The notes under the pieces were generated by a model. That model did no database searches. It saw only the letters and a program-made list of their open reading frames with translations, and was not told the DNA's origin. Positions 60-61,088 of a stretch of 64,000 bases of DNA are shown piece after piece (positions within the stretch are counted from its first letter, which is position 1; the number at the start of each line of letters is the position of its first letter). The position numbers were made by a program, and so were the translations under genes. Origin of the DNA: Octopus vulgaris (lineage: Eukaryota); contig OX597814.1 of the NCBI GenBank assembly GCA_951406725.2, forward strand, positions 144,708,001 through 144,772,000, in the 5' to 3' direction.

Positions 60-1430
60 GCAGATAATAGTCTTCACTCCTTAATCTTCCTTATATAGTT
101 GTCATTCGCAATGCCTGATTATTCACTGAATTACAACATTCTTCAAGGAGAATGTGGCGACTTAGTCTCCTACAAAAGCAACAGCATCCTTTTATCTTTT
201 ACTTGTTCCAGTCATTGGACTGCAGCCATACTGAGCACCGCATTGACGGGTTCAATAAATAAAATCACCATCAGTACTTATTTAATTAAAATTTGATACT
301 TATTCTATCGATGTCTCATGATCATATTCTGACACTATTCATCACTAATTCCCTAACAAACAAAGGATTTCGAGGGACCCACTGCAAGGCATTTTTCAAA
401 TGTTCTAACAATTCTGCCAATCCACTGCTGAGGGGATCTCCCAGATGTTATATATGTAACAATACTAAAATGACTTCACAAAGACTAGTTTCTTCTTCCG
501 GACCAGGAAACTCTACAACCCAGATCCATTTCAAAAACTCAATTAAGACCCACATTGGTGTACAGCTCACATATATGTATCTGTGCCACATACGAAATAA
601 TGCTGACACTTTGTCAGTTACAACGACGAGTGTTCTAATTGATCCGACCAACGGAACCGCTTGCTCGTTAAATTAACGCGCAAGTGGATTAGAATTCCAC
701 AGGCACGGGTACCCTTAACATAGTTCTCAGAGAGATGCAGTGTGACACAGAACGTGACAAGGCTGGCTCTTTGAATTATAGGTACAGCCCATTTTTTCCA
801 GCAGAGTGAACTGGAGCAACGGAAATAAAGTGTCTTGCTGCAGGACAACGCGCGGCCAGGTATTGAACTAACGACCTTATGATCGTGAGTCATATACTCT
901 AACCGCTAATCCACACGTTTTCACGCTACATAGAATATATACTGCATCTGAAAGAAGGCAGTGCGAAAGCAAGGCAAATATTAATTTACTAATACGCTAC
1001 ACCAATGGTTCCCAGCTGTTTTGTAACCTCGCTGCCATATCATTCTATGTTCAAGATACCAAGATACACAACGTACTTAATGGCATTTTCTGTCAGTTGT
1101 GTTATTCAAATTCAAGAACTCGTGACATTCTTACAACACCATACACCAGGTTTGGAAACGACTGCGGCAAAACCACAAGCTTATAGACACGCAGTTTATC
1201 TTCTCTACATTTACAATAGCCTCATCTCTAAACGTTTTGCATTACTCCAGGTTCATGGCTCACAAATCCTTCAATGCACCCGACTTCCCTCAACTCATCA
1301 TCCTTGCTCTGTCGTAAATCCTACGTCCATCACCAAACATTTTCCAAAATCATTTTTCGCCTCAGAGCTGTAATTCTCTGGAATCAACTAACAACATCGA
1401 TCTTATCAGTCAGGAATGATCTACAAAGGT
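60..1430 (+). mobile_element. Highly decayed CR1/L2-group LINE remnant (APE-like fragments, then RT C-terminal tail), interrupted by a SINE
   Basis: SHDHILTL (SDH-like motif, ~315); C-terminal AYRHAVYLLYIYN...HHP...KSFF...LWNQL pattern typical of CR1-group ORF2 ends (1180-1400); many stops and frameshifts. Confidence 0.4.
620..925 (-). mobile_element. tRNA-derived SINE family C
   Basis: Reverse complement shows a tRNA-like head, then the core ttgtcctgcagcaagacactttatttccgttgctccagttcactc shared with 39983-40220 and 51100-51212. Confidence 0.7.
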
Positions 1431-9172: not shown

Positions 9173-9204
<32 letters not shown>

Positions 9205-9229
9205 TCTCTCTCTTTATTTCATCGTTTTC

Positions 9230-9265
9230 CTTTCTGTTGAAGAGCGTAGGCTTAAAACGTAAAAG
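9230..9265 (+). ncRNA. Minimal type-I hammerhead-like motif (degenerate, A6U variant)
   Basis: cttt-CTGTTGA-A-gagc(gtag)gctt-AAAA-CG-TA-aaag; same family as the better-preserved copy at 59008-59043. Confidence 0.55.
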
Positions 9266-9446
9266 ACTTTCTCACCTTCCCGAGCGTCAAATTAATACAC
9301 CTGCTTGTTGTTTATACACCTGTATTCATCTTTTTTTCTGTAAATGTCAACTATATATATATATATATAGAATGGTGGTACAACAATGCTCCAATATTTA
9401 CTGGAAATAACAGCCGATAATATACGATGCTATAATAGCGTTACAC

Positions 9447-36600: not shown

Positions 36601-36878
36601 AGTCTGACTCTCTCCTTATGTGTACGTTACATATACAGTCACGCGTGCGCGCACACACACATTAATAAAGATACTTAGTTGTTTGCCACTTATACATGTT
36701 ACATATACATGAATCCACTCAAATATATTATGTATGAATATATGCGTATGTTTAGACACACACATGCACACACACACACACACTAACACATACGCACATA
36801 CACACACATCTTCACGTACACGCGTGTACAATCACTCAAATCAACGTGCATATCTCTCTCTATATATATGTATATATA

Positions 36879-36983
<105 letters not shown>

Positions 36984-38113
36984 CTCGTCTCCATGACCGA
37001 ACTGCAGTCGTGGATCAAAAAGAGGCTGAGGAAGGGCGAATGGCACCGCGAGTATCGCGTTGCTCTCAAGCAACTCTGCCGTCCCGGGTCGACCTTGAGT
37101 GACTTCAACACGACCAAAGCATTCTATAGGGGATTAGTGGAGGGGAGGTACGACGACGATCTTGGGGCAAACCTGGGCGTCGACGAGGAATACCTGACCC
37201 GCCTGTTTGAAACGACTTTCGGGCCGGGACCTATGGACAACTTCCAGAGATCCCTGGCCTGGCGGTGCTACCGAGAAGCGCTACCCGTTCGGGATAAGCT
37301 CTATAGGTATGGCTCGTGAAACACGGGGCCGACCTGCCCGAGATGCGGGCAGAGCGACGAAACCGCTCTGCACGCAATCGTGCAGTGTCCAACAATCTCC
37401 GACCTGTGGGCTTATGTCGAACGACTGCTGTCACGTGTGGGACGTGTCGGTTTATCAACCGAGTCTATCGTTAATATCGTCACGCCTCCTTCCTTCAAAC
37501 GGGAAGGAAGAGCTATTTTTATCATACTTGTGGCTATGGCGAAAGAATGTATCTGGTGGACGCGTCTGAAAGGATTAGAGACAAACACTTTCCTCTCTGG
37601 TCAATCTCTCATCAACTTCTTCAAGTATCACTTGAAGAGGAAAGTGAGAGTAGAGAGGCAAGTTTGTCTAGTGAGTGTTTTAAAAAAAGATGGGTGAATG
37701 TAGCAAGGATGGCACGTATGAATGACGAAGCCACCTTGACTATGATTCTATGAACCGTAAAAATTAATACAGATAGTTGCTTATTTGCAAAAAAAAGAAG
37801 AAATATAACATGTGACTTCATTGACCGAGGTTACCGTGGTCTTTTCCGTAGGCTTTTCTTTCCACGGGTAAACCTCACCTGTCCCCCCTTTACACTTCAT
37901 ATTGACATTTCTGTGATAACGATCCCTATTGATCCAATTTTGTTCCTCTCCCTCCCCCTTTTTTTATCCCCCCCTTTTTTTTGTCCTCTTTCTTTCTATT
38001 TACGATCCCTTTTGATCGAAAACCAAACCCCCTTCTTCTACCCCCAAAAGAAAAGCTCTACCTTGTAATTTTGTCCTGTCTGTGTGCAGCCCTGTGTGGC
38101 TAATAAAGAAACA
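36984..38113 (+). mobile_element. 5'-truncated Tx1/L1-clade LINE (zf-RVT C-terminus plus 3' UTR) abutting (TATC)n
   Basis: LAWRCYREALPVRDKL...TCPRCGQSDETALHAIVQCP (CCHC zf-RVT); pyrimidine-rich 3' UTR ending aataaagaaac. Confidence 0.85.
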
Positions 38114-42104: not shown

Positions 42105-42237
42105 GCAAAGGTGATGTAAATACAACACAAAGACGAGATAAAAAAATAAATAGAGTTTGTATTGGTCTAACGCTCAGGAAATGGGGGAAAAACAAGGAAA
42201 TGTCTTTAGCGTTTCGAGTATGTATGTATACACACAC

Positions 42238-47735: not shown

Positions 47736-47874
47736 AGAAAGTTGATTTGTGAAAGCACGTGGTTGAATATATAGAAAATAGTAAAAAGTGAAAAAACTAC
47801 AGAAGGCTTGTTTTAAAAGGTTAAAAAATATATATTTGAGTCAATATGTCTGCAGAATGTTATAAATTTTTTTC

Positions 47875-49366
47875 AGAGATGACTTAGATATGTTAAACCA
47901 CCTTCCCAAAAAAGCCAAGGAAGAAACAATCATGGTTTCATTTGATGTAGTTAACTTATATACCAGTATACCTCATAATTATGGACTAGAGGCAATACAG
48001 TTCTGGCTGGACCAATTTCCGGAAGAAATACCAAAAAGGATCAGTAAAGTATTCATTACTAAATCAGTTGAATTCATTCTACATAATAACCACTTCATGT
48101 TTGACAATACATTTTACCGTCAAAAATCCGGAATTGCTATGGGTACAAGGGCAGCACCAGTCATTGCGAACCTAACAATGGGCTACCTGGAAATAATCAT
48201 TTACCAGGAATCTTTATCAATCTTTGGAAACCCCTCTCTCAATACATAAAAGAGAATTGGAAACGATTCCTGGACGATTGTTTTATACTCTGGAATGGAA
48301 ACACAGATAAACTCCTAAAATTTAAAAACCTATTGAACAGCATAAACCCAAATATACAGTTCACAATGGAATACAACCAAAAGGAGTTCCCATTCTTGGA
48401 TATACTAATTAAAAAAATTAACCTTAAAATAGAAACAGACATTTTTTACAAAGCCATAGACGCCAAACAATACCTTCTTTTTAATTCATGCCACCCAAGA
48501 CACAATAAAACAAACATCTTCAACCTTGCAAGAAGGATATGCGCAATAGTGTCAGAACAAAATACCAGGAACTTTAGACTGCAAGAACTCAAAAACACCC
48601 TAATTGACAGACATTACCCAGCTCAACTCATAGAAATCAACTCATAGACGTGCAACAGAAATCAACATAGAAACTTTAAGAAAAGTTCAACACAACAACA
48701 CACCTTCCCCGAAAATACTACCTTACATATCTACATACAACCCCAGAAACAAAGAAGCCTTCACCATCATCACCCAGAATTTACCAATACTTCATAAGGA
48801 CCCCAAATTAAAGGAAATTCTAAACATACACCAAATCATTAAAAGCTACAAACAACCTAAATCACTTAAAAAGATTCTCACAAAGGCAAAATTGTTTTCT
48901 GAAATTACGGATGCAAAAGTAAAAAAAAATGTGGTAGACCGAACTGTGCAACATGTCCAAACCTGCTAGAAGGATCAGAATTCCTCTTCAAAGAGGGACA
49001 GAAATTCAAGATCAAATCTAATTTTACTTGTGCCTCTGAAAACATAATTTATGTCATAAAATGCTCGGGCTGCACCATAACTACGTGGGGTCCACGGAAC
49101 TATCACTCAGAAGTAGATGCACACTGCATCGACAACAGATTGCATTCCCAGAATACAGAATGATACCCTTTAGTGAGCACATTGAGAAATGCGCAAAGCA
49201 ACTACTACCACAATTTCTAATCTTTCCATTCTACCAATGTGCCATCGGAACACCAACACAAATTAGACTAAACAAGGAAACATTCTTCATTGAAAAATAC
49301 AAGCCCAAACTTAACCATTCCAACATACTTATACAGAGAAACTTAGTCCAAAAGAAAGGCAAATAA
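47875..49366 (+). pseudogene. Frameshifted PLE ORF: reverse transcriptase + GIY-YIG endonuclease
   Basis: VSFDVVNLYTSIP, YRQKSGIAMGT, WKRFLDDCF, PFLDILI, SCHP, CGRPNCATC, FTCASENIIYVIKC, NYVGST, ETFFIEKYKPKLN; several frameshifts. Confidence 0.92.
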
Positions 49367-49443
49367 TTTTAAGCGATTATCTCCCTTACACCGGAAGAAA
49401 TCACTTATTACCTGATCTCCGCTCAATGTAAACATAACGATTT

Positions 49444-49483
49444 AAGAAATTTGAAAAGCTGTACGCGAAACCGGTTATTTCTT
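49444..49483 (+). ncRNA. Minimal type-I hammerhead ribozyme in the PLE 3' pLTR (U3-A8 core)
   Basis: aagaaat-TTGAAAA-gc(tgtac)gc-GAAA-ccgg-TT-atttctt: 7-bp stem I, 2-bp stem II, palindromic stem III, GUU site. Confidence 0.75.
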
Positions 49484-49600
49484 CTAAACTATGTCATTGT
49501 ATGAAAAATTTATAACATTCTTCAGACATATTGACTCAAATATATATTTTTTAACCTTTTAAAACAAGCCTTATGTAGTTTTTTCACTTTTTACTATTTT

Positions 49601-49650
<50 letters not shown>

Positions 49651-49651
49651 A

Positions 49652-49731
49652 AACTTAGCGGTTCGACAAAAGAGACCGATGGAATAAGTACTAGGCTTAC
49701 AAAGAATGACCCCAGTACTCATTCTTATATA

Positions 49732-49783
<52 letters not shown>

Positions 49784-50050
49784 TATATAAGAATGAGTAC
49801 TGGGGTCATTCTTTGTAAGCCTAGTACTTATTCCATCGGTCTCTTTTGTCGAACCGCTAAGTTACGGGGACGTAAACACATCAGCATCAGTGGGGGGACA
49901 AACACACACACTCTCACATATACGACCGGCTTCTTTCAGTTTCTGTCTACCAAATTCATTCACAAGGCTTTGGTTGGCCTTAGGCTATTGTAGAAGACAC
50001 TTGCCCGGAAGCCGGAAGCAAGCTACTTACCATACAGCCACTCTTGCGCC
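49652..50050 (-). mobile_element. SINE B fragment with a perfect 75-bp inverted duplication around (TA)n
   Basis: 49652-49726 is the reverse complement of 49789-49863. Confidence 0.9.
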
Positions 50051-52996: not shown

Positions 52997-53042
52997 AACA
53001 CAACGTTTCGGCCGATATACCATCCAGCCTTCATCAGGTATC
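52997..53042 (-). ncRNA. Type-I hammerhead ribozyme
   Basis: Minus strand gatac-CTGATGA-A-ggctgg(atggtata)tcggcc-GAAA-CG-TT-gtgtt. Confidence 0.8.
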
Positions 53043-53091: not shown

Positions 53092-53137
53092 GATACCTGA
53101 TGAAGTCTGGAGGGTATATCTGCCGAAACGTTGCGTT
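53092..53137 (+). ncRNA. Type-I hammerhead ribozyme (slightly decayed copy)
   Basis: gatac-CTGATGA-A-gtctgg(agggtata)tctgcc-GAAA-CG-TT-gcgtt. Confidence 0.7.
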
Positions 53138-58856: not shown

Positions 58857-58909
<53 letters not shown>

Positions 58910-59007
58910 TATATATAGGGAGAATTCAGCAAAAAAACTACAGGCGAAGACAGGTGGTATAGAAAACAAACAAATGTATTAGTATAACGCTCGGGAATTG
59001 AAAAAGT

Positions 59008-59043
59008 CTTTAACGTTTCGAGCCTACGCTCTTCCACAGAAAG
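59008..59043 (-). ncRNA. Minimal type-I hammerhead-like motif (A6U variant) in a ~150-bp unit 58916-59063
   Basis: Minus strand cttt-CTGTGGA-A-gagc(gtag)gctc-GAAA-CG-TT-aaag. Confidence 0.65.
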
Positions 59044-59061
59044 GAACACAGAAAGAAAGAA

Positions 59062-59151
<90 letters not shown>

Positions 59152-59542: not shown

Positions 59543-59923
59543 CTAATGTAGGATAAAATTTTCTTCGAAAAAAAATTTTATCAATGGGCAGCATATCAAA
59601 AAATACCTTTAAAGGTTAAATTTATAAATAACTTCTAAAATAAGGGCAAAAGGAAAATTCTGATGCCAAATATGCCGAAAAAGACAAAATTGTCAATAAC
59701 CATTATAATTTATGCGTCTCAAAACATGCCGATAGAAATTTCTAAAAAATTCCGTTATTACCGTATTGGTTCCCCGAAATTGGGACCAATACGGTAATAA
59801 CAAAAATTTTTAGAAATTTCTATCGGCATGTTTCGAGACGCATAAATTATAATGGTTATTGACAATTTTGTCTTTTTCGGCATATTTGGCATCAGAATTT
59901 TTCTTTCGCCCTTATTTCATAAG
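59540..59923. repeat. Fold-back element, ~142-bp arms 59632-59774 and 59782-59923, 7-nt loop
   Basis: Near-perfect hairpin between (TA)n tracts; family of 40402-40703. Confidence 0.92.
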
Positions 59924-60039
59924 ATATATATATATATATATAATTTCAACAATTGAGGGTAAAATTAATTAATTATTAATTAATTTCACCAAGTGTTCAG
60001 TATGCAAAGGGACCATTTAAGGCGAATTCAAATTATTAC

Positions 60040-61088
<1,049 letters not shown>

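What the first reader, a model, noticed from the sequence alone, without database searches (positions are those of the whole stretch)
9202..9352. ~150-bp solo unit with an A6U-variant hammerhead, two copies (9202-9352+, 58916-59063-)
Seen: both copies sit between (TA)n tracts with similar boundaries, and both have U at core position 6 (CTGTTGA, CTGTGGA) plus an extra A before a GAGC-GTAG-GCTC stem II. Known: A6 is nearly invariant in hammerheads. Inference: a family-wide natural core variant rather than decay, in a discrete SINE-sized ribozyme element.
Basis: partly seen in the sequence, partly recalled or inferred. Interest (0 to 1): 0.7.

Follow-up and report, generated by a model that had tools for sequence, protein, structure and literature searches.

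The report
Retroelement-tail hammerhead with fixed U6 core
Two 150-base repeats, likely the cut-off tails of a very abundant Penelope-like jumping gene, carry a hammerhead-ribozyme motif in which a normally fixed core letter (A6) is U across the whole repeat family rather than only in these copies; it would be a new natural ribozyme variant if it still cuts, which is untested.

Summary
The two copies are real (81% alike, E 4e-25) and both read U at hammerhead position 6. Laying 39,905 contigs from four public runs on copy 2 showed no other letter at position 6 at the 3% listing threshold, while neighbouring N7 and the cleavage base N17 vary freely. It was wrong on a discrete SINE-sized unit. 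The 3' end is fixed to (TA)n, but the 5' end is private to each copy: other copies run on upstream, and a third copy in the window starts inside helix II. All other features (extra A after A9, 4-bp helix I, palindromic ACGU helix III, 3' end about 91-96 nt after the cut site) fit the minimal hammerheads in Penelope-like element (PLE) tails, which are known. The parent ORF was not found. New is only U6: I found natural A6C in print (one phage, slow in Mg2+), not A6U. Cleavage is untested; the motif is either a slowed, dimer- and protein-dependent ribozyme or a dead one amplified from one founder. Copy 1 is likely dead (G12A).

The parts
9202..9352 (+). Copy 1: 5'-truncated tail of the repeat family, between (TA)n tracts
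9230..9265 (+). Hammerhead motif of copy 1: helix I 9230-9233/9262-9265, core C3 9234, U6 9237, extra A 9241, helix II 9242-9253 (closing pair G-U), G12 changed to A at 9254, N17 = A 9261; likely inactive
   Evidence: numbering; G12A loses the general base (established; G12A used as inactive control in PMC13481778 passages)
58916..59063 (-). Copy 2: 5'-truncated tail of the repeat family, between (TA)n tracts; its ribozyme part equals the family majority except at N17
59008..59043 (-). Minimal type I hammerhead motif of copy 2: helix I 59043-59040/59011-59008, C3 59039, U6 59036, N7 59035, extra A 59032, helix II 59031-59020, G12 59019, palindromic ACGU 59016-59013, N17 59012
59036..59036 (-). 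Position 6 = U, fixed in the family
   Evidence: table 3: no row for 59036 in 4 of 4 runs (listing threshold 3%), while 59035 shows 30/24/4/30% G>A
58986..58992 (-). Downstream block shared by all three copies (GAGCGU); predicted to be able to pair with the helix III strand and hold the motif unfolded
   Evidence: pair probability 0.45 copy 2, 0.96 copy 3, 0 copy 1; prediction only
42105..42218 (-). Copy 3: more diverged copy, 5'-truncated inside helix II, with a 12-nt insertion after the ribozyme; 3' end approximate

Best explanation
These are likely 5'-truncated tail ends (pseudo-LTR remnants) of a very abundant Penelope-like retroelement that were written into (TA)n microsatellites, and the minimal hammerhead motif they carry has U in place of A6 throughout the family; it is predicted to cut only slowly, as a dimer and with help from the element's protein. 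Steps: (shown) the 3' end is fixed and joined to TA, the 5' end differs between copies; (shown) U6 is fixed while N7 and N17 vary; (inferred, from PMC11167929) the element's endonuclease nicks AT-rich DNA and its reverse transcriptase starts about 90 nt after the hammerhead cut site and falls off early, which leaves such tails; (inferred) A6U arose once in a master element and was copied with it; (inferred, from PMC4209133) two hammerheads of a tandem transcript pair through the ACGU palindrome to form helix III; (predicted) U6 lowers the rate further, as the natural A6C does, but the masters kept the rest of the core because slow, protein-triggered cutting of the tandem RNA is still used. The solo genomic copies have no partner hammerhead and would not cut in cis.
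For:: 10,143, 13,421, 12,799 and 3,542 contigs laid at 80% likeness or more in runs labelled organisms A, B, D and B; no other letter at 59036 from 3%. Register is confirmed by the free position next to it: N7 is G, A (4-30%) or U (copy 1); N17 is A (25-81%), U or C (up to 7%), and G is not listed. All other listed changes between C3 and U16.1 are C>T or G>A at CpG sites (1-23%). 2 of 3 free core positions vary against 0 of 10 fixed non-CpG ones (Fisher p 0.038). Boundary asymmetry (table 2): the half-TA bin beyond the 3' end keeps 44-47% of the depth of the bin before it, the TA bin beyond the 5' end keeps 0.1-3%; loose ends at 59064 share one non-TA upstream sequence in 4 of 4 runs (82, 66, 130, 33 contigs). 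Copy 3 starts inside helix II. Anatomy matches PLE min-HHRs. N17 to 3' end is 96 and 91 nt against 85-92 nt from cut to RT start in the anole PLE. Octopus PLEs with a (TA)n preference are listed in PMC8557442 supplements, and the window holds other PLE tails with A6 hammerheads.
Against: No RT/GIY-YIG ORF could be joined to this family: the upstream sequence is known for about 30 nt only and is absent from the window (1 match at 3 mismatches, 2.6 expected); no genome is held; scans of metagenome, genome and viral contigs gave 0 hits. The selection signal is weak and post hoc: p rises to 0.125 if loop II counts as free; no compensatory change in helix I or II was seen; G1.4>U (2-9%) breaks the last pair of helix I. 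Published data say position 6 matters: all single CUGA mutants had low activity (PMC9901934), A6C gives 0.004 per min at 1 mM Mg2+ (PMC7151607). ViennaRNA does not favour the hammerhead fold: helix I probability at most 0.08, helix II 0.01 in whole copy 2, U6 can mispair with A15.1 (0.03 and 0.24), double-hammerhead energy -12.9 against -23.6 kcal/mol for the best dimer (the model ignores core contacts). Hammerhead cleavage was not needed for insertion in vitro and Naiads thrive without one. Depth at position 6 is 68-87% of the peak, so a minority of clipped A6 copies cannot be excluded; 552 loose-end rows were hidden. Transcription is not shown (run X12 is RNA only by guess).
Confidence: 0.5

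Rival explanations
1. Same origin (Penelope-like tails, U6 family-wide), but the ribozyme is dead: A6U killed it in a master element, the element did not need it, and retrotransposition multiplied the scar; the motif persists through recent descent or as a protein-binding handle.
For: Low activity of CUGA mutants and of A6C in Mg2+; PLE min-HHRs are slow even with A6; hammerhead mutants did not impair insertion by the anole PLE and no RNA-seq ends were found at its cut site; Naiads lack hammerheads; predicted folds are mostly non-hammerhead; no covariation seen.
Against: Frequent non-CpG variation inside the core falls on N7 and N17, the positions that catalysis leaves free, and N17 is not listed as G; the other conserved bases are kept across runs of three organism labels with different subfamily make-up, while flanks carry many substitutions and indels.
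Confidence: 0.33
2. A short non-autonomous element (SINE-like, or a solo monomer of a non-LTR retrozyme) of a few hundred bases that borrows a PLE enzyme, rather than truncated copies of a coding PLE.
For: No ORF linked; copies 1 and 2 have similar length and start 32 and 24 nt before C3; one contig in run X7 joins 59057 back to 58909 head-to-tail (tables 5, 5c); retrozyme monomers derived from pLTRs are described (bioRxiv 10.64898/2026.07.22.740005).
Against: The 150-bp 5' boundary is not shared (tables 2, 7; copy 3); no tandem array in the window and head-to-tail joints rest on single contigs; no Pol III head; retrozymes carry canonical hammerheads (PMC7229834 passages). A longer non-autonomous parent is not excluded.
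Confidence: 0.11
3. The active fold is a monomer that uses the conserved downstream block as the second strand of helix III and cuts at a second site (GUU/GUC at 58988-58986).
For: 15.1-15.5 can pair with the block in copy 2 (0.45) and copy 3 (0.96, five Watson-Crick pairs), and the block ends in GUH in 3 of 3 copies.
Against: The helix I that this fold needs has 3 non-pairs of 11 in copy 2 and 4 of 11 in copy 1, with probability 0 next to the core; energies -4.8 and -0.6 against -7.4 and -4.6 for the first site; pairing probability 0 in copy 1.
Confidence: 0.03
4. Independent decay of an A6 consensus in these two copies.
For: Copies are 19% apart and copy 1 has other decay (G12A); reference bias could hide clipped contigs.
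Against: No A at position 6 at 3% in 4 of 4 runs, although a change one base away was seen at up to 30%; none of the 24 best-supported loose ends lies at 59034-59037; A>U is not a CpG change.
Confidence: 0.03

Closest known systems
Minimal type I hammerheads (min-HHR) in pLTRs of metazoan Penelope-like elements (Cervera & De la Pena 2014, PMC4209133)
   Same: Short helix I, extra base between 9 and 10.1, G10.1-C11.1, palindromic 15.2-16.2 (CG), U-rich 5' flank, mostly solo copies from truncated elements. The Acropora digitifera Neptune row of Fig. S3 has the same 4-bp helix II with 4-nt loop, GCUC 3' strand and CGU.
   Different: U at position 6: 56 of 56 rows of Fig. S3 and 34 of 34 rows seen in File S2 of PMC8557442 have A6, though both searches demanded it. 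No linked ORF shown here.
Natural A6C hammerhead of phage Bcep176 (Perreault 2011, PMC3088659; Naghdi 2020, PMC7151607)
   Same: A natural pyrimidine at position 6 in an otherwise intact core.
   Different: C not U; a single phage motif with tested activity (0.004 per min at 1 mM Mg2+, 0.31 at 1 mM Mn2+) against a high-copy animal repeat family with no test; not a minimal dimer type.
PAc, the Poseidon PLE of Anolis carolinensis (Frangieh 2024, PMC11167929)
   Same: Hammerhead about 90 nt upstream of the 3' end of insertions; AT-rich targets.
   Different: PAc has a tested, protein-assisted hammerhead and a known ORF that starts in helix II; no A6 change is mentioned in the parts read; here no start codon lies in the core and no ORF is linked.
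Non-LTR retrozymes of animals (PMC7229834; bioRxiv 10.64898/2026.07.22.740005)
   Same: Small non-coding unit with a type I hammerhead, PLE-related, solo monomers occur.
   Different: Retrozymes are tandem arrays with canonical hammerheads and circular RNA; here copies are solo, 5'-truncated and the hammerhead is of the minimal type.

Membership tests
PLE min-HHR (Cervera 2014) | CUGANGA core with A6 | tested here: not met
   U6 in copies 1 and 2 and family-wide; C3, U4, G5, G8, A9 are kept
PLE min-HHR (Cervera 2014) | GAAA (12-15.1), U16.1 and H17 | tested here: met
   Copy 2 and family majority; N17 = A, U or C. Copy 1 has G12A; G12A is 2-4% in the runs
PLE min-HHR (Cervera 2014) | Extra base between 9 and 10.1, G10.1-C11.1, helix II | tested here: met
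   Extra A at 59032/9241; helix II probability 0.87 in the local fold of copy 2, 0.01 in the whole unit
PLE min-HHR (Cervera 2014) | Palindromic 15.2-16.2 allowing a dimeric helix III; short helix I | tested here: met
   ACGU palindrome and 4-bp CUUU/AAAG in both copies by sequence; predicted helix I probability at most 0.08
PLE min-HHR (Cervera 2014) | Self-cleavage as a dimer | not testable with these tools
   Needs a bench assay
Penelope-like element (EN+) | RT plus GIY-YIG ORF adjoining the pLTR | tested here: inconclusive
   No PLE protein piece near any copy (tblastn); upstream known for about 30 nt only; no genome held. The PLE at 47866-49366 has another tail sequence
Penelope-like element (EN+) | Fixed 3' end, variable 5' truncation, insertion into microsatellite/AT-rich DNA | tested here: met
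   tables 2 and 7; copy 3; 2 of 3 copies end in TA, copy 3 in (TG)n
Rfam hammerhead families | Covariance-model match | tested here: inconclusive
   0 matches on copy 2 at E up to 10, but the A6 minimal hammerheads at 53037/53097 are missed too
SINE | tRNA/5S/7SL-derived head and a defined 5' end | tested here: not met
   (0 Rfam matches); 5' end not shared
Non-LTR retrozyme | Tandem repeats each with a canonical type I hammerhead | tested here: not met
   Three solo copies in the window; head-to-tail joints on single contigs only
Non-LTR retrozyme | Expressed as circular RNA | not testable with these tools
   Only contigs were laid; run X12 is RNA by guess

The most novel reading that the evidence does not exclude
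A very high-copy octopus-type Penelope family runs on a working natural A6U hammerhead: a deliberately throttled ribozyme that stays off in Mg2+ (U6 and the downstream block hold it misfolded) until the element's protein or a metal such as Mn2+ switches the dimer on; all CUGANGA-based surveys would have missed it, so animal hammerhead counts omit whole families.
Probability: 0.3. Interest if true: 0.72.

Novelty: new variant of a known kind. Interest (0 to 1): 0.5.

Why it matters
A6 is among the most constant hammerhead bases; the only natural substitution I found in print is A6C in one phage. A substitution fixed in a large animal repeat family is a natural experiment on an open question: whether the hammerheads of Penelope-like elements have to cut at all. 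If U6 dimers cleave, the core consensus and the search descriptors need widening; if they do not, this is a clear case of a successful PLE family that spread with a broken ribozyme. Either result comes from one cheap assay. The element type itself is ordinary.

Tried and rejected
No whole genome is held, so no genome-wide alignment or walk to a parent ORF was possible. Exact-motif scans of metagenome, genome and viral contigs: 0 hits each. Search of the window for the upstream continuation: chance level. Rfam on the whole window gave 170 matches at E up to 1; none of the 150 shown is a hammerhead, 20 were not shown; on copy 2 none. The window's own PLE (47866-49366) was considered as parent and rejected: different tail and a U3-A8 core; blastn and nhmmer give no match. 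A second GAGC acting as a decoy for helix II: probability 0.02-0.03, rejected. Second cleavage site: see rival 3. A spacing argument from Hydra-clade elements was dropped: their cut site is about 35 nt from the end (note 4). Family motif terms gave no relevant hit in the supplements of PMC8557442 (line-wrapped FASTA could hide a match) and PMC13282606 (its consensus library is not among the files). Expression could not be judged. The 'A6U' hit concerns twister ribozymes. Lunse et al. 2017 on PLE hammerhead dimers was not held and may list position-6 variants.

Full report
Observation. Copy 1 (9202-9352, +) and copy 2 (58916-59063, -) are present as described, each between (TA)n tracts, and align at 81% over 118 nt with E 4e-25. 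An 18-nt core pattern matches only these two places, against 0.06 expected. Numbering: copy 2 has helix I CUUU/AAAG, core C3-U4-G5-U6-G7-G8-A9, an extra A, helix II GAGC-GUAG-GCUC, G12-A13-A14, then A15.1-C-G-U16.1 and U17. Copy 1 differs at four of these 32 bases: U7, U11.1, A12 and A17; the loss of G12 likely makes it inactive.

Host. The window is 28-42% G+C and rich in microsatellites. A broken PLE ORF at 47866-49366 has named relatives from Octopus bimaculoides and Argonauta at 59-62% and from oysters at 54-57%. That the host is an octopus is an inference from this and from my recollection of octopus SINE tails, which I did not test.

Is U6 family-wide? No genome is held, so I laid contigs of four public runs on copy 2 (4 of the 24 runs listed; organism labels A, B, D, B; 80% likeness; changes listed from 3%). 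10,143, 13,421, 12,799 and 3,542 contigs were laid. No row appears for 59036 (position 6) in any run. One base away, N7 is A in 30, 24, 4 and 30% of depth; N17 is A in 63, 81, 25 and 69% and C in up to 7%; G17 is not listed (fractions). The other listed changes from C3 to U16.1 are C>T or G>A at the three CpG sites (59028, 59027, 59019, 59015, 59014; 1-23%); G1.4>U is 2-9%. No indel reached 3%. Limits: depth is summed contig word depth, not copy number; the bin holding position 6 has 68-87% of peak depth, so contigs clipped there could hide a minority with A6; none of the 24 loose-end rows shown lies there, but 552 rows were hidden; copies under 80% alike are not seen. U6 is therefore the family letter in all runs, and decay is rejected.

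Is it a discrete 150-bp unit? No. On the 3' side contigs run on into the TA tract: bin 58906-58911, half of which is TA, holds 44-47% of the depth of the bin before it in 4 of 4 runs. On the 5' side they do not: the TA bin 59068-59073 holds 129, 1,519, 2,129 and 12 against 25,687, 47,518, 210,993 and 12,616 (table 2). Loose ends at 59064 share one non-TA upstream sequence in all four runs (82, 66, 130, 33 contigs; table 7). With copy 3, this is a fixed 3' end and a variable 5' end, the pattern of target-primed reverse transcription that stops early. One contig in run X7 joins the 5' end back to the 3' end, as in PLE partial tandems (table 5c). How far the parent extends upstream is unknown: that sequence is not in the window and motif scans of three public collections found nothing. 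Rfam finds no SINE head.

What it is. Cervera and De la Pena (PMC4209133; main text parts 1-2 of 4, supplement parts 1-2 of 3 read) describe minimal hammerheads in PLE pseudo-LTRs with short helix I, an extra base between 9 and 10.1, G10.1-C11.1 and a palindromic 15.2-16.2, mostly as single motifs from truncated elements, active only weakly and as dimers. Everything here fits except A6, which 56 of 56 aligned motifs have (their descriptor demanded it). So the extra A is ordinary. In the anole PLE (PMC11167929; parts 1-2 of 4) reverse transcription starts 85-92 nt after the hammerhead cut site, targets are AT-rich, the ribozyme cuts only when protein is added, and cutting is not needed for insertion in vitro; here N17 lies 96 and 91 nt from the 3' end. 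Octopus PLE families that prefer (TA)n are listed in the supplement of PMC8557442 (passages, supplement searches and part 2 of 59); none was shown to be this family. PLEs cover 6.83% of the O. vulgaris genome in 190 families (PMC13282606 supplement). The same window has other hammerhead tails, all with A6: 53037 (-), 53097 (+), 60277 (-), 60750 (+) and a U3-A8 form at 49451. If three copies per 64 kb is typical, the family has on the order of 10^5 copies; this is a rough inference from one window.

Does it still cut? Untested. Against: all single CUGA mutants were low in a mutational scan (PMC9901934 passages; no A6U number seen); natural A6C gives under 0.1 per min (PMC3088659 passages) and 0.004 per min at 1 mM Mg2+ but 0.31 at 1 mM Mn2+ (PMC7151607 parts 1-2 of 4); predicted folds disfavour the hammerhead (helix I at most 0.08; helix II 0.87 locally but 0.01 in whole copy 2; U6-A15.1 mispair 0.03 and 0.24; double hammerhead -12.9 against -23.6 kcal/mol), with the caveat that the model ignores core contacts; Naiad PLEs lack hammerheads. 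For: frequent non-CpG variation in the core falls on the two positions that catalysis leaves free (2 of 3 free against 0 of 10 fixed, p 0.038; p 0.125 with loop II counted as free; post hoc), across runs with different subfamily make-up, while flanks differ by many substitutions and indels. No compensatory change was seen. I put slow but used cleavage somewhat ahead of a dead motif (0.5 against 0.33); both share the PLE-tail origin and the family-wide U6, which together I hold at about 0.85. A block 20-26 nt after N17, shared by all three copies, can pair with the helix III strand (0.45, 0.96 and 0 in copies 2, 3 and 1) and could be an off state that protein binding relieves; this is a prediction with one copy against it.

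Novelty. Searches: 'hammerhead' + 'A6U' gave one work, on twister; 'hammerhead ribozyme' + 'Penelope' + 'octopus' gave one; 'hammerhead' + 'cephalopod' + 'ribozyme' listed four, none on this by title or abstract; further searches. I found no natural A6U. The library lacks most subscription papers; Lunse et al. 2017 was not held, the figure supplements of PMC3088659 gave no searchable text for my terms, and Repbase or Dfam were not searchable, so the repeat itself may well be catalogued. Also consulted: bioRxiv 10.64898/2026.07.22.740005 (parts 1-2 of 5), PMC13282606 (parts 1-2 of 3), and passages of PMC6765202, PMC7229834, PMC11662667 and PMC13481778; a term search of PMC11014351 found nothing. 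In this scan's earlier notes the words 'a6u' and the core string met no finding and no look-alike stretch was indexed.

Verdict. A new core variant of a known motif in a known kind of element. It works like a PLE minimal hammerhead but fails the A6 membership test, so I file it as a variant. Interest 0.5; 0.72 if it proves active.

Noticed in passing
window 47763-49605 (+): Broken Penelope-like element of another family: RT and GIY-YIG pieces at 47866-49366, a CX4CXXC linker near 48925-48960 (Neptune/Nematis-like), an inverted copy of its last 100 bases at 47763-47861, TA on both sides.
   Followed up: partly
window 49444-49483 (+): Hammerhead of that element with the U3-A8 core (UUGAAAA), a 2-bp helix II, a CCGG palindrome and a 7-bp helix I; U3-A8 is already described in PLEs.
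   Followed up: partly
window 53002-53037 (-) and 53097-53132 (+): Back-to-back pair of minimal hammerheads with the standard CUGAUGA core, likely a fold-back PLE truncation.
   Followed up: partly
window 60189-60334 and 60693-60838: 146-nt inverted repeat, arms 100% identical, each with a CUGAUGA...GAAACGUA motif (60277 -, 60750 +); helix fit not worked out.
   Followed up: no
window 49650-49865: Near-perfect palindrome with a (TA)n centre right after the PLE end; gives spurious miRNA scores in Rfam.
   Followed up: no
window 59617-59938: Inverted repeat with 157-nt arms, 92% complementary, 8 nt apart, 550 bases from copy 2.
   Followed up: no
window 851-917 (-): tRNA-like match just under the Rfam threshold (27.3 of 29 bits), possibly a SINE head.
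   Followed up: no
window 36756-37697 (+): LINE-like fragment with a zf-RVT match (E 6e-4).
   Followed up: no
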